Notes: a model not told the origin generated them from the sequence alone. Positions 42,343-48,502 are shown, counted from the stretch's first letter. The stretch is 64,000 nucleotides of DNA from Dehalococcoidia bacterium (GCA_034428455.1 DAOUHZ010000147.1:75576-139575), one strand, 5' to 3'. Translations and numbers: made by a program.

Positions 42343-42349
42343 TGCGCTA
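42339..42349. repeat. 11-bp direct repeat copy 1 (TCATTGCGCTA) at the copy B stop / proC start junction
   Basis: It is identical to 42880-42890. On the minus strand it reads TAG-CGCA-ATG, that is, the stop of the PaREP1-like ORF, 4 nt, then the proC start. Confidence 0.85.
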
Positions 42350-42883
42350 GTCCTCGTTGCCCGCCAAGCCGTGCTTGCGGGAGAATCCCACATCGGAGGT
42401 ATCGCCCATTGCCAATTGTTCGTTCCCGGTGAGGCGGCGCAGCCGTCGCAACTGTGTGTTGCTGCTGATCGTGAACGGACGGGGAGGCATGGCCGTCAGG
42501 TCGATCAATGCCTCCATCACCCGCTCAACTCCGTCGATCATTTCGGACAACTCTTCCGGGCTGCGGTGATTTTCGTAAAAGTTCTCGTGGCCGACGAAGT
42601 ATGCCAACGAAAGAGCATATGCCTGATCAGTGTCGAAGCCGTATTCCAGCACGAGCTGGCTAAGTACTGCGTGAACGTCCTGATGGGACTTATGCCGCCA
42701 GCCGCGTTGTTCGGCGATGGCTTTCACCGGGTGCACCACGGCGCCCCAAGCTTTCTCACCCGCCTGCAAGCGGCTGCCATTAGACAGTTCTTCGCGAGCC
42801 TGGATGATCATACGCAAGCTGATCCGGAGACGGTCTTCGGTACTTTGAACGCCGTGCGCCGGCAAATCCGGTGCGGTGGTCAT
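42347..42883 (-). CDS. PaREP1-like (HEPN-like helical) small protein, copy B
   Basis: QAGEKAWGAVVHPVKAIAEQRGWRHKSH....GHENFYEN has the same motifs as copy A. ATG 42883 lies 4 nt after the pdxA stop, and the ORF's own stop lies 4 nt before the proC ATG. GC is somewhat lower than in the flanking genes. Confidence 0.5.
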   Translation of the reverse strand: MTTAPDLPAHGVQSTEDRLRISLRMIIQAREELSNGSRLQAGEKAWGAVVHPVKAIAEQRGWRHKSHQDVHAVLSQLVLEYGFDTDQAYALSLAYFVGHENFYENHRSPEELSEMIDGVERVMEALIDLTAMPPRPFTISSNTQLRRLRRLTGNEQLAMGDTSDVGFSRKHGLAGNED

Positions 42884-42890
42884 TGCGCTA
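42880..42890. repeat. 11-bp direct repeat copy 2 (TCATTGCGCTA) at the pdxA stop / copy B start junction
   Basis: It is identical to 42339-42349. On the minus strand it reads TAG-CGCA-ATG, that is, the pdxA stop, 4 nt, then the start of the PaREP1-like ORF. Confidence 0.85.
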
Positions 42891-43931
42891 ACCCTCGCCC
42901 CAGCCGTCCGTGAGGCCGTCGCCCCGGGCGAAAGCCACTGCCATACGGATCGATTCCACCATTGACGTGTGGTCGGCCAGGTTCTTGCCGGCGATGTCGA
43001 ACGCCGTTCCGTGGTCAACCGACGTCCGAATGAACGGCAGCCCGAGGTTGGCGGTGATGCTCTCTTCGAAGCCGTACACCTTGACCGGGATGTGCCCCTG
43101 GTCGTGGTACATGCAAAGGGTCACGTCGTACCGGTCTTGGATCGCCTGGTGGAAGATGATATCTGCCGGCACCGGCCCGATGGCGTTGATGCCTTCGCTC
43201 TGCGCCTGCTGCACCGCCGGCGCGATCTCTTCCGCTTCCTCGCTCCCCAGCAGCCCGCCGTCGCTGCCGTGCGGGTTCAACGCGGCGACGCCGATGCGAG
43301 GATTCGCAAATCCCCACTTGCGGAAGTTGTCGTCGGTGAGCCTCAGGTAGTCGAGGATCCGGTCCTTCTTCACGTAATCGCAGGCTACGCGCAGTGACCG
43401 GTGCGTTGTCAGGTGCACCACCCGCAGGTTCTTGGCCATCAGCATGGTGGCGACGGTCTTCGCGCCCGAAAGTTCCTGGAGCAACTCCATGTGCCCGATG
43501 GCTTCGTATCCGGCCAGCGCGGCGGCTTCCTTGTTCAGCGGAGCCGTCGCCAGGCCGTCGACCACACCGGCCATTGCCAACTGTCCGGCCTTGCTGACCC
43601 ACTCCATGGCCGCCCTGCCACACGGTACGCTCAGCTGTCCGACGGTGATGTCCTCGGGATTAAGGTTCCCGATGTCCACCACGTCCACCACCGCAGGATT
43701 GTCGCCGGCCGAAGTGGGGTCGTCGGTGTGGTTGATCCCCATCGGAAGTCCGGTCAACCGGGCCGCCTCTTCCATCGCATGGACATTGCCCACCACCACG
43801 GGTCGACACGCAGCGTACACCCGCGGATCGGCCAGCGCCTTGACCACCACCTCCGGCCCGATGCCGCAGGGGTCGCCCATAGTGATCGCAATGGCCGGTC
43901 GCATCGTTTCGTTTTCCGTCCCTGATACCAT
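42888..43931 (-). CDS. pdxA: 4-hydroxythreonine-4-phosphate dehydrogenase
   Basis: IAITMGDPCGIGPE, ..TAPLNKEA.., ..GH.E.L.. and HGTAFDIAG are PdxA signatures. The start is 43931 (GAGG RBS) or 43904. Confidence 0.85.
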   Translation of the reverse strand: MVSGTENETMRPAIAITMGDPCGIGPEVVVKALADPRVYAACRPVVVGNVHAMEEAARLTGLPMGINHTDDPTSAGDNPAVVDVVDIGNLNPEDITVGQLSVPCGRAAMEWVSKAGQLAMAGVVDGLATAPLNKEAAALAGYEAIGHMELLQELSGAKTVATMLMAKNLRVVHLTTHRSLRVACDYVKKDRILDYLRLTDDNFRKWGFANPRIGVAALNPHGSDGGLLGSEEAEEIAPAVQQAQSEGINAIGPVPADIIFHQAIQDRYDVTLCMYHDQGHIPVKVYGFEESITANLGLPFIRTSVDHGTAFDIAGKNLADHTSMVESIRMAVAFARGDGLTDGWGEG

Positions 43932-44102
43932 TTCACGCCTCATCCGTCAGTGCGATTTGCGCCCGGCCGATTGGCGGCAAATTATAGCACGCGGGCCGCG
44001 CTGAAAAGCCGCTGCTTTTCCGAGGTGGGTTGCCCAGATAAGGCGAACCTCTTAAACTTGCGGCACAAATCCGCTTTTGACTTGGCACTGTCAGGAGGCG
44101 CC

Positions 44103-44639
44103 ATGGCCTCACCAGAAAATTTCGAGCAGGACCGCGGCAAATTGATTGAGGCCGTGATTTACCTGAGCGAGCTGTCCATTGACGACCCCGAGTTTGGCCT
44201 GCCCAAATTGACCAAGATGCTCTATTACGCTGATTGCGAGTCCTATATGGAGTACGGTCAGCCTATCACCGGAACCACTTACCTCCATTTTCCCCACGGC
44301 CCCTATCCGGAGAACTGGTACCAGATAAGGGAACGGATGGAGCAGGATGGCGACGTGGAGGTACTCCACGATACCGCCGCTGGAGGGTATCACAACTACT
44401 GGTTGCTGCCTCTCCGCCCGCCTGACTTGGAACGGCTCACCCTCGAAGACCGCAAGGCGTTGGAGGCGCAAGTGAAGCGTTTTGCCGGCTTCAACGCCGC
44501 GGGCATCGAGCAATACTCCCGCCAGGACATCGGCTGGCGGGCCACTGAAGATGGGCAACCAATCTCATACGAATTGGCTGGCGTCTTCGCTCCAACGCCG
44601 AGCGTGCGCGAATTCCGAGAATCCCGAGTCGCTAGCTAA
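44103..44639 (+). CDS. Panacea-domain (DUF4065, SocA/PanA-like) antitoxin-type protein
   Basis: PKLTKMLYYADCESYMEYGQPITGTTYLHFPHGPYP matches the DUF4065 core (KL.KLLYYA......G.P......A...GPV). ATG 44103 is preceded by AGGAGG. The track ORF starts at 43950. Confidence 0.7.
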   Translation: MASPENFEQDRGKLIEAVIYLSELSIDDPEFGLPKLTKMLYYADCESYMEYGQPITGTTYLHFPHGPYPENWYQIRERMEQDGDVEVLHDTAAGGYHNYWLLPLRPPDLERLTLEDRKALEAQVKRFAGFNAAGIEQYSRQDIGWRATEDGQPISYELAGVFAPTPSVREFRESRVAS

Positions 44640-45027
44640 CTTTCCTCGCTCCCAGCAGCCAAACGGTGACGTCATCTTCTATGATTTCGTAGCGGATTTC
44701 TATCCTACCGTGGCGATTAGCAGCAGAACGGGGAAACCCGATGCGTCTGACGTTATCAGGCTCTCCTGGGATAAGTGCTCCGGTCATGGGATACTCCGAC
44801 AATCGCCTTTTTATGCCTTCAAGCGTAGCAGGATCCGCCATCTGATTAATCCAACCTTCAATGATACCGCTCCGCCAATCCGACTGAAAGGATTCCCGCT
44901 CCGCGACCGAATACCGACCTCGCTGGTGTGGAATCACTACCCCGCATCTCCATTTCGCATCGTTTGACCATCGCCGAAATCCAACAAGCCAGAGCGGATT
45001 ATCATCCGCCCCGGCCCGGTCGGTCAT
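44632..45027 (-). CDS. RelE/ParE-superfamily-like toxin candidate with an N-terminal extension of about 37 aa
   Basis: The C-terminal ..GEPDNVRRIGFP....HGRIEIRYEIIEDDVTVWLLGARK resembles the RelE/ParE core (R.R.G.YRI.Y.I.....V.I..I.HR). ATG 45027 overlaps the nrdJ stop (ATGA). An alternative GTG start is at 44937. This stretch has clearly lower GC. Confidence 0.45.
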   Translation of the reverse strand: MTDRAGADDNPLWLVGFRRWSNDAKWRCGVVIPHQRGRYSVAERESFQSDWRSGIIEGWINQMADPATLEGIKRRLSEYPMTGALIPGEPDNVRRIGFPRSAANRHGRIEIRYEIIEDDVTVWLLGARKVS

Positions 45028-48000
45028 TCGCACTTGTTCCACCCGCACGAATAGCAGCTCAGGCAGCCCTCCTGGTTAACCACGCCTCCATTGCACTCCG
45101 GGCATCGCTGGGAAAAGCCCGTCGGATACATTGGCGCTGGCGTATGACCGTTGATACCGTTCTCCGTGGGCCCCCCGGCCAGGCTCAATTGCACGCCGGC
45201 AGGCGCGCTGTTCAGCGCATCGCCGCCATTGGCGATCTTGTCCAGCACCAGGGCCACCGCGTCGGGGCCGGATCCCACCAGCACGCCATCGTCCCACGCC
45301 GGGCAGCACGTTATCCCACGCAATTGCCGGGTGACTTCGCTGGGATCGATGCCCCCACGCAGCGCCAGCGATACCAGCCGTGAAACTGCCTCCAGCAGCG
45401 CAGCATCGCATCCGCCGGCCTTGCCCATGGCGCCGAACACTTCAAAGGGCATCCCGTTGGAATCCATGTTCACGGTGACGTACATGTTGCCGTGTCCGGT
45501 CCGCACCCGTTCCGTGATGCCGTGGATCTGACGGGGTCGGCGCCGGGGCGCCCGGTGGCCGAGCCCGATGATCTTCACGGCGTCCGGGTCGTCAGCGTCA
45601 GCCGGATTATCGGCTTCGGATGTTTCTCCGCTAGTGCCGGTGCTCAACACCTGCTCAGACTTGCTGCCGTCGCGGTAAACGGTGATCCCTTTGCATCCCA
45701 GGGTGTAGGCGGACCGGTAGGCCTCCGCCACGTCTTCCACTGTCGCCTCGCTGGGGAAGTTGATGGTCTTGGACACCGCGTTGTCCGTGTATTCCTGGAA
45801 GGCCGCCTGCATCCGCACGTGCCACCGGGGATCGATGTCGTGGGACACCCGGAACACGCTCTTGACCCATTCCGGCACGTCCAGGTCCTCCAGCGAGCCG
45901 ACGCTGGCCAACTGCTCCATGAGTTCCGGCGTGTAAAACCCTTCGTGGCGAGCCACCGCTTCCAGGAAGGCGTTCCCCTCCACCAGGCGAGTGTTGTCCA
46001 TCACGTTCCGCACGTAGGACAGGGCGAACAGCGGCTCAATCCCGCTGGATGCCCCGGCGATGATGCTGATCGTTCCCGTTGGCGCAATGGTCACCGGCGC
46101 CGAGTTGCGCATGGGCGAGGAATCCGGGCCCTTGTTGTACGCGCTGTTTTCCCATTCCGGGAAGGGGCCCCGGGACTCGGCAAGTTCGCACGAAGCCCGG
46201 TAAGTCTCTTCCCGGATGAACTTCATCACCTCGCGGGCCAGTTCCAGGGCTTCCTCGCTGTCGTAGGGCACGCCTATCTGGATCAGCAGGTCCGACCATC
46301 CCATGACGCCCAGGCCGATACGGCGCGTCCGCCGGCTCATGTCCGCGATTTCCTGGATCGGATAGTCGTTCATGTCGATCACGCAGTCGAGCATGTGCAC
46401 CGCCGTCGTGATCACTTCGCTCATCCGTTCCCAGTCGACTTCAACGTCGTCCGCCGTGTAGCGAACCATGCGCGTCAGGTTCAGCGAACCCAGGTTGCAG
46501 GATTCGTAGGGCAGCAGCGGCTGCTCTCCGCAGTTGTGGACGTAGAACCCGTTTGCGTCGAACGCGTTTACCCCGGGAACCGCCACGTCGAACACGTCCT
46601 CGTGATTGTCGGCTTCTATCTCGGTGACGCGGGCCATGAAAGACCTATCGTTGTCTGGAGTTTGCGAAAGTTCAAGCCACCGCTCAAAGCCCTCCGGCTT
46701 GACGACGGCGTTGAATCTGTCGAAATGCTCGTTGGCAACTAGTAGCTCCGGGTAACCTTCCCCATACCAAATGCTGGACTTTATAGCCAGTCGCAGCAAC
46801 ATCCGTTGCAAACCCTGCAAGATCGTTTCATCTGCCTCGCGGGGAGCAATGTTGATGCACTTCGGGTTTTTACCAGTGTGCTCCTTGTGGCGAAGGGACA
46901 GCCCCCTGAAAAATCCGATGTAGAACTCCCCGGATGTGCGCTCCAGATCAGGAGTCACATCTGGACACTTCGGGTCGATTTTCAAACACTGTCTGATTTC
47001 GCCGAGAAGCGCCTGCTCTTGAGATGTGGGTTCTTGCGGATCCTTTTTGGCGCGACGCGTGTGAGGGTCGACAATTATGCGATGTGGGTTCTTCATAAAG
47101 AACCTTCCCATCAAGATGCCTTCCTCCTCACCGTATTGACCATGCCATTGAGCAGAGTCGCAATGGGAGTTCAGCCTGACGACATCGCCCTTTTGCAATT
47201 CACCAGCCCTTTGCCATCCTCGGTCAGTCATCACCGGATGGTCGGCGGTGAGGCGAAGGGTGTAGCCTTCTCGGGTGGCAATCTTGATTAAGGCCCGGTG
47301 GCCTGTAGGGAAGAATCCCCGTCCGTCGGTGTTGTGGCCCCGGCCGTCAACCATCGCCTCGAACGGGACACCCACCAGTTCCCTGACTTGACGCGGCCCA
47401 TCCGAGGTTTGCACCCAGGTGTCGGCCGTCACGCAAGGATTGGTCGATTCGATATCCCCCAGCTGCGGGTTGGGATTGTCGCGGTTGATGCGATCCAGGA
47501 ACACGATGCCGGGGTCGCCGGTGCGCCAGGCCAGCTCGGTCATCTGCCGAAACACTTCCCCGGCGTTCAGCTGCCCGTCAACCTGCCCGGTGCGCGGATT
47601 TATAAGATCGTAATCCTCTCCCTTTTCCGCCTTGACCATGAAGTCTTCCGTGACCGCCACCGAGATGTTGAAGTTGCTCAGATGGGTTCCGTCTTCTTTG
47701 GACCTGATGAACCGGAGCACGTCGGGGTGCGTCACGTGCAGGATGCCCATGTTGGCGCCCCGGCGGGTGCCGCCCTGCTTGACCACGTCGGTCGCCGCAT
47801 CGAAAGCGTTGATGAAGCTCACCGGGCCCGACGCCACTCCTCCGGTGGAACCGACGACGTCGCCCTCCGGGCGCAGGCGCGAAAAGGCAAAGCCCGTGCC
47901 GCCGCCGCTCTTATGGATCAGGGCCGTTTCCTTCACCTTGGTGAAGATGGAATCGAGCGAATCCTCCACCGGCAGCACGAAGCACGCCGACAGTTGTTGC

Positions 48001-48359
48001 AGTTCACGCCCGGCGTTCATCAAAGTTGGTGAGTTGGGGAGGAACTCCAGCCGGCGCATCACCCGGTAGAACCGCTCCTCCACCGCGGCGCGCTCCGCTT
48101 CGGTCGCCCCGTATTCCAGCTCCGATTGGGACAGGTTGTGCGCCACCCGGCGGAACATCCCTTCGGGGTCTTCCAGCACGTTCCCTTCCCGGTCCTTGGA
48201 AAGATACCGACGCTGCAGCACGACCCTCGCGTTATCCGTCAGGGTCCCGTTGCGATCGTTGTACTCGCCGGCTATGCCGGCCTCGACCATTGCGTCGCGT
48301 ATGCGCCGCCTCACCGAATCAGCCCTGCCTGCCGGTTCAATTCCCGTAGCCGTTGCCAC
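45024..48359 (-). CDS. nrdJ: adenosylcobalamin-dependent (class II) ribonucleotide reductase, intein-containing
   Basis: NSPTLMNAG, CFVLPVEDS, GGGTGFAFSRLRP and STNP|..intein..|CGEQPL are present, plus a C-terminal Cys-rich zinc ribbon (CPECNGG..CLSCYSCGW). GTG 48359 lies 8 nt after GGGAGG. The track ORF starts at TTG 48383. Confidence 0.9.
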   Translation of the reverse strand: MATATGIEPAGRADSVRRRIRDAMVEAGIAGEYNDRNGTLTDNARVVLQRRYLSKDREGNVLEDPEGMFRRVAHNLSQSELEYGATEAERAAVEERFYRVMRRLEFLPNSPTLMNAGRELQQLSACFVLPVEDSLDSIFTKVKETALIHKSGGGTGFAFSRLRPEGDVVGSTGGVASGPVSFINAFDAATDVVKQGGTRRGANMGILHVTHPDVLRFIRSKEDGTHLSNFNISVAVTEDFMVKAEKGEDYDLINPRTGQVDGQLNAGEVFRQMTELAWRTGDPGIVFLDRINRDNPNPQLGDIESTNPCVTADTWVQTSDGPRQVRELVGVPFEAMVDGRGHNTDGRGFFPTGHRALIKIATREGYTLRLTADHPVMTDRGWQRAGELQKGDVVRLNSHCDSAQWHGQYGEEEGILMGRFFMKNPHRIIVDPHTRRAKKDPQEPTSQEQALLGEIRQCLKIDPKCPDVTPDLERTSGEFYIGFFRGLSLRHKEHTGKNPKCINIAPREADETILQGLQRMLLRLAIKSSIWYGEGYPELLVANEHFDRFNAVVKPEGFERWLELSQTPDNDRSFMARVTEIEADNHEDVFDVAVPGVNAFDANGFYVHNCGEQPLLPYESCNLGSLNLTRMVRYTADDVEVDWERMSEVITTAVHMLDCVIDMNDYPIQEIADMSRRTRRIGLGVMGWSDLLIQIGVPYDSEEALELAREVMKFIREETYRASCELAESRGPFPEWENSAYNKGPDSSPMRNSAPVTIAPTGTISIIAGASSGIEPLFALSYVRNVMDNTRLVEGNAFLEAVARHEGFYTPELMEQLASVGSLEDLDVPEWVKSVFRVSHDIDPRWHVRMQAAFQEYTDNAVSKTINFPSEATVEDVAEAYRSAYTLGCKGITVYRDGSKSEQVLSTGTSGETSEADNPADADDPDAVKIIGLGHRAPRRRPRQIHGITERVRTGHGNMYVTVNMDSNGMPFEVFGAMGKAGGCDAALLEAVSRLVSLALRGGIDPSEVTRQLRGITCCPAWDDGVLVGSGPDAVALVLDKIANGGDALNSAPAGVQLSLAGGPTENGINGHTPAPMYPTGFSQRCPECNGGVVNQEGCLSCYSCGWNKCE
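46533..47435 (-). mobile_element. intein (301 codons) inserted in the NPCGE active-site motif of nrdJ
   Basis: It begins with Cys (CVTADTWV, block A), has block B TLRLTADHP, and ends ..DANGFYVHN followed by the +1 Cys of CGEQPL. The central part (about 46740-47100) is visibly low in GC and carries only degenerate LAGLIDADG-like strings (GILMGRFFMKN, FYIGFFRGLSL). Confidence 0.85.
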
Positions 48360-48502
48360 CGCAAGTACCTCCCGTAAATTCAACTATATTGATCAAACTT
48401 ATGATTAACAGATAAAGAACGACGATTTGCATGGGCGTACCGTGCACCGCTGTAGTCTAAACGATCAACCTTCTCGCGCGCCGGGGTCTATCGAATTGAT
48501 AC

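What the first reader, a model, noticed from the sequence alone, without database searches (positions are those of the whole stretch)
44103..45027. Panacea (DUF4065) antitoxin-type gene convergent with, and 3'-overlapping, a RelE/ParE-like ORF that is ATGA-coupled to nrdJ
The DUF4065/Panacea protein (44103-44639) has no co-directional toxin partner. Upstream of it is the divergent pdxA. Its only neighbour is a low-GC ORF on the opposite strand whose C-terminal half resembles RelE/ParE toxins (..RIEIRYEIIEDDVTVWLLGARK). That ORF's ATG overlaps the stop codon of the essential nrdJ gene (ATGA at 45024-45027), and its 3' end overlaps the Panacea gene by 8 bp (44632-44639). No conventional small antitoxin precedes the toxin-like ORF. 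Known PanA-toxin pairs are operonic. A convergent, antisense-overlapping arrangement, with the toxin-like gene riding on the nrdJ transcript, would be a new architecture. It may combine protein-level and antisense-level control.
Basis: partly seen in the sequence, partly recalled or inferred. Interest (0 to 1): 0.6.

Follow-up and report, generated by a model that had tools for sequence, protein, structure and literature searches.

The report
Tail-to-tail Panacea antitoxin / RelE-fold toxin pair
An uncultured Dehalococcoidia bacterium carries a two-gene toxin-antitoxin cassette (a Panacea antitoxin and an unnamed RelE/ParE-fold toxin) whose genes face each other instead of forming the usual operon; at least 24 related genomes keep this layout, but the toxin gene is not translationally coupled to nrdJ as first proposed.

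Summary
The gene at 44103-44639(+) encodes a Panacea/DUF4065 protein (Pfam E=2e-13). It faces a small gene whose stop codon overlaps its own by 8 nt.

The partner is 101 aa (44632-44937, GTG start with its own Shine-Dalgarno), not 131 aa. The ATGA overlap with nrdJ is a chance extension of the open frame. It runs across the nrdJ terminator hairpin, and in-frame stops interrupt it in orthologues.

With a 30-sequence alignment the partner folds confidently (pLDDT 89.5). Its top 46 PDB matches are all RelE/ParE-superfamily toxins. No Pfam, NCBIfam or PADLOC model recognises it.

The family is tiny: 58 clusters among 1.84 billion proteins. It is multi-copy within one Dehalococcoidia genus, and intact copies always sit beside a Panacea gene. 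Forty copies are canonical panA>tox operons, two of them in this genome. The tail-to-tail form is a single derived clade, always inserted between nrdJ and pdxA. It occurs in at least 24 species genomes, with both genes under purifying selection (dN/dS about 0.15-0.2).

PanA plus RelE/ParE-like toxins is already a catalogued (untested) pairing. The conserved convergent layout is a new variant. The toxin appears to have no promoter of its own and probably depends on read-through of the nrdJ terminator. No RNA data could be obtained.

The parts
43981..43989 (-). Extended -10 (TGCTATAAT) of the pdxA promoter. It marks the pdxA-side edge of the inserted cassette.
   Evidence: The same element lies directly between nrdJ and pdxA in genomes with the empty site (L076, L078, L080, L081). 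Window sequence.
44030..44058 (+). Putative panA promoter: TTGCCC, 17 nt, TAAACT.
   Evidence: Position and spacing are conserved across orthologous loci, with variants such as TTGCGC/TTGCCG-17-TAAACT/TACAAT/TAAAAT. It falls below the threshold of the generic promoter scan, so it rests on conservation only.
44103..44639 (+). panA: Panacea/DUF4065-domain antitoxin gene, 178 aa, with AGGAGG 5 nt upstream.
   Evidence: Pfam PF13274 E=2e-13. 140 homologues were found and all 120 listed carry PF13274. dN/dS about 0.15.
44632..44639 (.). Overlap of the two stop codons (CTAGCTAA): tox TAG and panA TAA separated by 2 nt.
   Evidence: The same 8-nt geometry occurs in 15 of 25 convergent loci. The others overlap by 11-20 nt, and one by 60 nt after a junction deletion.
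44632..44937 (-). tox: 101-aa RelE/ParE-fold toxin-like gene with a GTG start.
   Evidence: Homologues are called at 101-106 aa. AF2 gives pLDDT 89.5 and pTM 0.81 with beta-alpha-alpha-beta-beta-beta topology. The Foldseek top 46 PDB hits are all RelE/ParE-superfamily toxins. dN/dS about 0.19.
44948..44951 (-). Shine-Dalgarno GGAG, 10 nt before the tox GTG.
   Evidence: Read. Orthologues have GGAG, GGAGG or AAGGAG 7-10 nt before the aligned start.
44985..45018 (-). GC-rich stem-loop directly after the nrdJ stop, most likely the nrdJ intrinsic terminator. It lies inside the spurious 30-codon N-terminal extension.
   Evidence: Terminator scan hit with 15 pairs. Folding gives -44.2 kcal/mol, z=-2.9. 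A hairpin is present after the nrdJ stop in all 26 orthologous loci (a different stem in L056/L075), with compensatory stem changes. In L057, L061 and L065 a T-rich tract follows.
45024..48383 (-). nrdJ (class II ribonucleotide reductase, contains an intein): upstream co-directional neighbour of tox.
   Evidence: ORF and translation. The C-terminal CPECNGG...CGWNKCE motif is conserved in all loci.

Best explanation
This is a cognate type II toxin-antitoxin cassette of the PanAT kind. It pairs a Panacea-domain antitoxin (PanA, 178 aa) with a 101-aa toxin that has the RelE/ParE fold and belongs to a small unnamed family restricted to one Dehalococcoidia genus.

The ancestral and prevailing form of this pair is an ordinary panA>tox operon. 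In one lineage the toxin gene came to lie inverted relative to panA. That tail-to-tail cassette sits in the nrdJ-pdxA intergenic slot and has been kept there under purifying selection.

Inferred steps, not shown:
- PanA is made from its own conserved promoter.
- tox has a ribosome-binding site but no visible promoter. It lies directly behind the nrdJ terminator, so it is transcribed mainly by read-through from nrdJ, or from an unrecognised weak promoter. This would keep toxin synthesis well below antitoxin synthesis without operon coupling.
- The two stop codons overlap and no terminator lies between the genes. Each transcript must therefore run antisense into the other gene, which allows transcriptional interference or RNA pairing as a second layer of control.
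- PanA is expected to neutralise the toxin by direct binding, as validated PanA proteins do.
- Whether the toxin cuts mRNA on the ribosome or poisons gyrase cannot be decided from sequence.
For: Domain and fold:
- The Panacea domain is confirmed.
- The toxin fold comes from a high-confidence AF2 model whose 46 best PDB matches are HigB2, RelE, ParE2, YoeB, YafQ, PfiT and similar toxins, each at Foldseek probability 0.38-1.00, 44 of them at 0.89 or above. An earlier shallow model gave the same top hits.
- Three of 30 family members give weak sub-threshold hits to Pfam ParE_toxin.

Partnership:
- Of 53 family hits in 25 genus genomes plus 2 metagenome contigs, 51 lie beside a Panacea gene. Forty are co-directional with panA first and 11 are convergent.
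- The two exceptions are a contig too short for the ORF filter, where tblastn does find pan, and a decayed copy.
- This genome has two operonic paralogous pairs, at C132:42758-43656 and C1:74154-75138.

Single origin:
- The convergent copies fall on one side of a branch in both the toxin tree (SH-aLRT 79) and the PanA tree (85).
- All of them lie in the arrangement nrdJ> tox> <panA pdxA>.

Breadth and insertion:
- 22 further species genomes were found in genome contigs.
- Related genomes have the empty site, with nrdJ directly followed by pdxA. One has a CBASS system in the slot.

Selection:
- dN/dS is 0.19 for tox and 0.15 for panA, against 0.04 for pdxA.
- All family-invariant residues are kept in the convergent clade.

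Decay pattern:
- In the one genome where panA is lost from the locus (G001), tox is truncated at codon 70.

Regulation:
- The panA promoter is conserved.
- No promoter-like site was found between the hairpin and tox. Only about 22-30 nt separate the hairpin or T-tract from the start codon in L055, L071, L072, L057 and L061.
- No terminator lies between the genes.

Literature:
- PanA partners include ParE and HHpred HigB-2/YoeB/RelE-like clusters T14 and T28, all marked untested (PMC8832971).
Against: - There is no experimental evidence for toxicity, neutralisation or complex formation.
The organism is known only from metagenome-assembled genomes.
- No sequence model recognises the toxin.
- The catalytic residues of E. 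coli RelE do not appear to be kept. Only one basic residue (R64) is invariant, the most conserved motif is acidic (Y-x-I-V-E-D-D), and the protein ends right after the last strand. It could therefore be a non-enzymatic or even non-toxic member of the fold.
- Support for the single-origin branch is moderate (79 and 85, quick trees).
- Promoters of Dehalococcoidia are poorly defined, so a weak tox promoter could have been missed.
- In one genome (L068) an IS fragment separates nrdJ from an intact tox. If that copy is functional, it argues against strict dependence on nrdJ read-through.
Confidence: 0.72

Rival explanations
1. One reading: a 131-aa toxin-like ORF whose ATG overlaps the nrdJ stop codon (ATGA), so the toxin is translationally coupled to the essential nrdJ gene.
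For: The letters ATGA are present at 45024-45027, and the frame is open from there to 44632 in the window.
Against: - In-frame stops lie between the nrdJ stop and the conserved start in L001, L004/L050, L008/L064, L061, L065 and L067.
- All called homologues are 101-106 aa.
- A Shine-Dalgarno sequence precedes the internal start in every orthologue.
- The extension would be translated through a conserved terminator hairpin.
- The distance from the nrdJ stop to the tox start varies between 50 and 100 nt.
Confidence: 0.03
2. The pair is genuine, but the tail-to-tail layout is a neutral rearrangement with no regulatory meaning. Each gene has its own ordinary promoter and the transcripts end soon after the stop codons, for example through Rho. 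Control would be purely protein-protein, as in any type II system.
For: - PanA-type antitoxins neutralise by direct binding (PMC8832971).
- The CDS overlap is only 8-20 nt.
- In L068 tox remains intact although an IS fragment cuts it off from nrdJ.
- Promoter consensus scans are weak evidence in this phylum.
Against: - No promoter-like element lies in the 22-50 nt between the hairpin and the tox start in any orthologue.
- No intrinsic terminator lies between or just inside the genes.
- The stop-codon overlap geometry is retained in all 25 loci despite 46-74% toxin identity, which suggests constraint on the junction.
Confidence: 0.2
3. The small protein is not a toxin. It would be a RelE/ParE-fold protein that has lost toxic activity, or has another role, and PanA would be a binding partner or regulator rather than an antidote. 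In that case the layout says nothing about toxin control.
For: - No Pfam, NCBIfam or PADLOC hit.
- The RelE catalytic set is not conserved, and the invariant motif is acidic EDD.
- Kurata's RelE/ParE-like PanT clusters are untested.
Against: - The features are typical of toxin-antitoxin modules: a multi-copy family with up to 6 copies per genome, always next to PanA.
- The genes have low GC and occupy insertion slots shared with CBASS.
- The cassette evolves faster than its flanks yet stays under purifying selection.
- tox is truncated where panA is lost.
- ParE-type toxins do not need the RelE catalytic residues (established knowledge, cited in PMC10440598).
Confidence: 0.1

Closest known systems
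PanAT systems (Panacea/DUF4065 antitoxin plus varied toxins; Kurata et al. 2022, PMC8832971; Ernits et al. 2023, PMC10440598), especially the predicted, untested PanT clusters with HHpred matches to HigB-2/YoeB/ParE/RelE (T14, T28)
   Same: A Panacea-domain antitoxin of about 180 aa without an extra N-terminal domain sits tightly next to a small RelE/ParE-fold toxin. The pair is conserved across species. Paralogues in the same genome have the canonical order, with the antitoxin first and overlapping stop and start.
   Different: At this locus the genes are convergent with overlapping stop codons, so they cannot be one operon. The toxin family has no sequence-level link to any named family. Chloroflexi entries in Kurata's stored table belong to other clusters (T1, T2) and no Dehalococcoidia entry was found, although that file is truncated.
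RelE/ParE-superfamily toxins with solved structures (V. cholerae HigB2 8A0X/5JA8, E. coli RelE 4FXE/4FXH, ParE2 5CW7, M. tuberculosis RelE1/2)
   Same: Same beta-alpha-alpha-beta-beta-beta fold, with TM-scores of 0.55-0.70 over 88-105 alignment columns, and a similar size.
   Different: Identity is 11-20%. The RelE catalytic Lys/Arg/Tyr set is not evident, there is no C-terminal helix, and the family has its own invariant Y-x-I-V-E-D-D motif. The partner is Panacea rather than RelB, HigA or ParD.
Type I toxin-antitoxin systems with convergent, 3'-overlapping antisense RNA (B. subtilis txpA/RatA, yonT/SR6; PMC5848175 listed)
   Same: The toxin gene is faced by a convergently transcribed unit whose transcript must overlap the 3' end of the toxin mRNA.
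   Different: Here the facing transcript encodes a protein antitoxin. RNA-level control is only inferred from the geometry.
Restriction-modification gene pairs arranged tail-to-tail (from general knowledge of R-M gene organisation, not tested here)
   Same: A toxic and a protective gene are kept as a mobile two-gene unit in convergent orientation with separate promoters. They insert into intergenic slots that related genomes fill with other defence cargo.
   Different: The proteins and chemistry are unrelated.

Membership tests
PanAT (Panacea-antitoxin TA systems) | The antitoxin carries the Panacea/DUF4065 domain | tested here: met
   PF13274 E=2e-13, 51.6 bits against a cut-off of 25.7, residues 36-145. 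The GPY motif corresponds to the conserved GPV strand described in PMC8832971.
PanAT (Panacea-antitoxin TA systems) | Conserved two-gene neighbourhood, at most 100 nt between the genes, in two or more species (Kurata criteria) | tested here: met
   The genes overlap by 8-20 nt in 24 of 25 convergent loci and by 60 nt in one. At least 24 species genomes have the arrangement.
PanAT (Panacea-antitoxin TA systems) | [quoted passage not shown] | tested here: not met
   The genes are convergent at this locus. The feature is met by the 40 paralogous operonic copies, including two in this genome.
PanAT (Panacea-antitoxin TA systems) | The toxin arrests growth and the cognate PanA neutralises it by direct binding | not testable with these tools
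   Needs expression assays and pull-down.
RelE/ParE toxin superfamily | Small alpha/beta fold with strand-helix-helix-three-strand sheet topology, superposable on solved members | tested here: met
   AF2 pLDDT 89.5, elements E10-13, H15-27, H35-48, E63-69, E78-86, E91-100. The top 46 Foldseek PDB hits are all superfamily members.
RelE/ParE toxin superfamily | Match to a curated sequence model (Pfam ParE_toxin PF05016 or related, or NCBIfam) | tested here: not met
   The window protein hits no family. Three of 30 members hit PF05016 only at E>=0.023. A family profile against PDB sequences gave 0 hits.
RelE-type ribosome-dependent mRNases | Conserved basic and Tyr catalytic residues (E. coli RelE K52, K54, R61, R81, Y87; from established knowledge) | tested here: inconclusive
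   Family-invariant residues are F17, W21, R64, Y83, E87, D88 and D89. Only R64 is an invariant basic residue, and the protein ends after beta-4. No residue-level structural superposition was done.
Type I TA (antisense-RNA antitoxin) | An antisense transcript overlapping the toxin mRNA controls its translation or stability | not testable with these tools
   The geometry allows it: the stops overlap and no terminator lies between the genes.

The most novel reading that the evidence does not exclude
The inverted toxin gene has been rewired so that it has no promoter of its own. It would be expressed only by read-through of the terminator of nrdJ, the NrdR-controlled ribonucleotide reductase gene. 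At the same time it is opposed by the antitoxin gene's convergent transcript.

The cassette would then be a hybrid protein-plus-antisense toxin-antitoxin system, with toxin dosage tracking the cell's dNTP or replication-stress state, for example during phage infection. Its position in a slot that relatives fill with CBASS would fit a defence role.
Probability: 0.2. Interest if true: 0.75.

Novelty: new variant of a known kind. Interest (0 to 1): 0.55.

Why it matters
Type II toxin-antitoxin systems are defined and searched for as two-gene operons. Their control is explained by co-transcription, translational coupling and autoregulation.

Here the same two protein families occur in closely related genomes, and within one genome, both as ordinary operons and as a long-lived tail-to-tail pair. 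This is a natural experiment showing that operon coupling is dispensable. It also offers a defined case for asking how the toxin:antitoxin ratio is set without it, whether by terminator read-through, convergent transcription or antisense pairing.

There is a practical consequence. Same-strand rules in toxin-antitoxin finders would label such Panacea genes as 'orphan' antitoxins and miss their toxins. The work also adds an unnamed RelE/ParE-fold family to the Panacea partner list and corrects the gene model from 131 to 101 aa.

Tried and rejected
- The 131-aa, ATGA-coupled gene model was rejected.
- Sequence-model searches for the toxin found nothing useful. Pfam, NCBIfam and PADLOC gave no hits, and PHROGs gave only one non-significant hit (E=0.35). 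phmmer against PDB gave only chance PapG hits at E>=0.2. The family profile against PDB gave none.
- The first AF2 run used a 3-sequence alignment and was weak (pLDDT 69.5, N-terminus unmodelled). The 30-sequence model replaced it.
- The search for related loci with the 30-sequence alignment failed because no conserved stretch was available. It was rerun with the 9-sequence convergent-clade alignment.
- I considered that the hairpin after nrdJ came in with the cassette as its own terminator. Operonic cassettes show no such hairpin after tox, and some empty sites also have a hairpin after nrdJ, so I dropped the idea.
- I considered a conserved operator palindrome over the panA -35. It is seen in several convergent loci but not generally upstream of operonic panA genes, so I make no claim.
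- A search for a tox promoter between the hairpin and the start codon found nothing convincing.
- A literature search for convergently transcribed type II systems returned only type I and R-M examples. This is a text-match search of open-access papers, so it is not proof of absence.

Full report
**1. The observation**

ORF listing and sequence show the following layout:
- pdxA at 42888-43943 (-);
- a 178-aa ORF at 44103-44639 (+);
- an opposite-strand ORF ending at 44632;
- nrdJ at 45024-48383 (-).

The 178-aa protein matches Pfam SocA_Panacea (PF13274, E=2e-13, 51.6 bits against a cut-off of 25.7). It has no co-directional small partner. The two coding sequences overlap by 8 nt (44632-44639, CTAGCTAA). 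Both genes have 53-61% GC, against 63-68% in the flanks. An ATG does overlap the nrdJ stop, giving ATGA at 45024-45027.

**2. The gene model is 101 aa, not 131 aa**

- Database homologues are called at 101-106 aa and start at the position of the window's GTG 44937.
- A GGAG lies 10 nt upstream of that GTG. Orthologues have GGAG, GGAGG or AAGGAG 7-10 nt before the aligned start.
- In L001, L004/L050, L008/L064, L061, L065 and L067 an in-frame stop lies just upstream of that start.
- The spacer between the nrdJ stop and the tox start is 50-100 nt and is mostly taken up by a strong GC-rich stem-loop. In the window this is 44985-45018, with 15 pairs; the 111-nt region folds at -44.2 kcal/mol, z=-2.9.
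- A hairpin directly after the nrdJ stop is present in all 26 orthologous loci examined; L056 and L075 carry a different stem. It shows compensatory stem changes, for example GGCGGAT/ATCCGCC, GGCGAAT/ATTCGCC and GGCAGAT/ATCTGCC. In L057, L061 and L065 a T-rich tract follows, as in an intrinsic terminator.

The 30 extra codons are therefore a chance open frame across the nrdJ terminator. Translational coupling to nrdJ is refuted.

**3. What the small protein is**

No Pfam, NCBIfam or PADLOC model matches it, and PHROGs gives only one non-significant hit (E=0.35). Sequence search against PDB gives only chance hits.

A first AF2 model from three sequences was mediocre (pLDDT 69.5), yet already hit HigB2. 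With a 30-member family alignment (A2) the model is confident: pLDDT 89.5 and pTM 0.81, with strand-helix-helix-strand-strand-strand topology. Its 46 best Foldseek matches in the PDB are all RelE/ParE-superfamily toxins, at probability 0.38-1.00 (44 of them at 0.89 or above) and TM 0.39-0.70. They include HigB2, RelE, ParE2, YoeB, YafQ, PfiT, HP0892/0894 and M. tuberculosis RelE1/2 and ParE2.

Three of 30 members give sub-threshold hits to Pfam ParE_toxin (best E=0.023).

Family-invariant residues are F17, W21, R64, Y83, E87, D88 and D89. Y9, G28, L39, L46, P50, V86 and V92 are nearly invariant. The RelE catalytic set is not evident and the protein ends right after the last strand. Whether it acts as an mRNase or as a gyrase poison therefore stays open.

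The family is very small. A profile search of 1.84 billion representative proteins found 58 at E<=0.001. A word-indexed search of 5.8 billion clusters found 48, none with a name or a Pfam domain.

**4. The two genes are partners**

A six-frame search of 41 genomes found the toxin family in 20 of 25 genomes of one genus, G000 included, with up to six copies per genome. It was found in none of 16 other families of the same order. Record titles identify the organisms as uncultured Dehalococcoidia MAGs.

I fetched every hit with its flanks and classified the neighbours with jackhmmer:
- 51 of 53 hits lie beside a Panacea gene;
- 40 of these are co-directional with panA first, mostly with overlapping ends;
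- 11 are convergent.

The two exceptions are a 598-bp contig, where tblastn does find the pan fragment, and a decayed copy in G001.

The window's own genome has two canonical operonic paralogue pairs, at C132:43656..42758 and C1:75138..74154.

**5. The tail-to-tail form is derived, single-origin and locus-specific**

In the toxin tree the convergent copies are one side of a branch nested among operonic ones (one change, SH-aLRT 79). The PanA tree gives the same split (85). This is moderate support from quick trees.

Every convergent copy lies in the arrangement nrdJ> hairpin tox> <panA | pdxA>. A scan of 185,579 species genomes added 22 genomes with this arrangement, three operonic loci and one decayed locus. 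With G000 and G016 this makes at least 24 genomes, plus two metagenome contigs, one of them from a TARA sample.

The stop-codon overlap is kept everywhere:
- 8 nt in 15 of 25 loci;
- 11-20 nt in nine;
- 60 nt in G022, where a junction deletion removed the tox stop and the PanA tail.

**6. It is an insertion into a cargo slot**

Genus genomes without the cassette have nrdJ followed after 90-300 nt by pdxA and its TGCTATAAT promoter (G003, G004, G011, G013, G015, G024). In the window the same promoter element lies at 43981-43989, just beyond panA.

G012 carries a CBASS system in the slot instead. It consists of a CD-NTase (PADLOC cyclase, E=5e-106) with an E2-like C-terminus and a Cap17-like effector. 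In L068 an IS4/5-family fragment sits between the nrdJ terminator and tox.

**7. Selection**

Within the convergent clade, median dN/dS over pairs with 0.05<dS<2 is 0.19 for tox (36 pairs), 0.15 for panA (54 pairs) and 0.044 for pdxA (189 pairs). Both cassette genes are thus maintained by selection.

For several pairs cassette dS is saturated while pdxA dS is only 0.3-0.8. This suggests that divergent cassette alleles are exchanged by recombination through the conserved flanks.

Decay fits a toxin-antitoxin relationship. In G001, where panA is gone, tox is truncated at codon 70. In G016, a low-quality MAG, tox is frameshifted.

**8. How it probably works (inferred)**

panA has a promoter conserved in position and spacing across orthologues: TTGCCC-17-TAAACT at 44030-44058, with variants TACAAT and TAAAAT. 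It also has a strong ribosome-binding site.

For tox I found no promoter-like element. The generic scan's single hit on that strand (first hexamer at the nrdJ stop, -10 inside the hairpin loop) I took as chance. Only about 22-30 nt separate the hairpin or T-tract from the start codon in L055, L071, L072, L057 and L061. The simplest reading is that tox is transcribed by read-through of the nrdJ terminator, or from an unrecognised promoter in the nrdJ 3' end. This would keep toxin output low relative to PanA.

The stops overlap and no terminator lies between or just inside the genes. Each transcript must therefore extend antisense into the other gene, which permits interference or RNA pairing.

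**9. Comparison with what is known**

Kurata et al. [quoted passage not shown] They list ParE among partner domains. Their Dataset S1 holds clusters T14 and T28 with HHpred matches to HigB-2/YoeB/ParE/RelE, marked 'notest', and records gene order only as A|T or T|A.

Ernits et al. 2023 state that type II systems are bicistronic operons. A full-text search for convergently transcribed type II systems returned only type I and R-M cases.

So the protein pairing is a new member of a catalogued kind. The conserved convergent architecture is a new variant.

The scan's own notes report a tail-to-tail Panacea/ParE-like pair in an unrelated genome (e1-2191079). I could not check that note. If it holds, the layout recurs independently.

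**10. Verdict**

- Novelty: new variant of a known kind.
- Interest is moderate (0.55).

Noticed in passing
L082:394-3134 (G012, between nrdJ and pdxA): In one genus genome the same nrdJ-pdxA slot holds a two-gene CBASS system. It has a CD-NTase (PADLOC cyclase E=5e-106, Pfam SMODS) with an E2-like and SEC-C C-terminus, plus a Cap17-like nucleosidase effector. The slot is therefore a defence-cargo hotspot.
   Followed up: partly
window 42347-43018 (-), between pdxA and proC: A low-GC ORF with a PaREP1/HEPN-like sequence lies just downstream of pdxA. Small cassettes therefore flank pdxA on both sides.
   Followed up: no
window about 46500-47450 (-), inside nrdJ: nrdJ carries an intein-like insert (Cys...His-Asn-Cys boundaries visible in the translation). 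The scan already noted this as e1-3109193.
   Followed up: no
L068:2169-2953: An IS4/5-family transposase fragment (Pfam DUF4096, E=2e-20; the frame looks broken) is inserted between the nrdJ terminator and an intact tox gene in one genome (CBDCPE010000004.1).
   Followed up: partly
G000:C132:42758-43656 and loci L015, L017, L019, L021, L022, L024: Operonic panA>tox cassettes recur directly upstream of a hydantoinase-B-like gene (MPVDAISLEVFKNMF...) in at least seven genomes, which marks a second insertion hotspot. Tandem duplicated cassettes occur in L014, L022, L029 and L043.
   Followed up: partly
L016/L072 (G001), L023 (G016), L006/L060 (G022): Three decayed versions of the convergent locus were seen. 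In G001 tox is truncated at codon 70 and panA and pdxA are absent. In G016, a low-quality MAG, tox is frameshifted. In G022 a junction deletion extends tox by 40 aa and shortens PanA by about 25 aa.
   Followed up: partly
L077:331-1005 (G023): A 670-nt spacer between nrdJ and pdxA holds a 73-aa very basic ORF (MKPPVLCQRCCRRVKRG...) of unknown nature. It may be a remnant or another small cargo.
   Followed up: no
convergent loci L050-L075 compared with the window: Synonymous divergence of tox and panA is saturated between genomes whose pdxA dS is only 0.3-0.8. The cassette alleles therefore seem older than their flanks, which suggests allele swapping by homologous recombination.
   Followed up: partly
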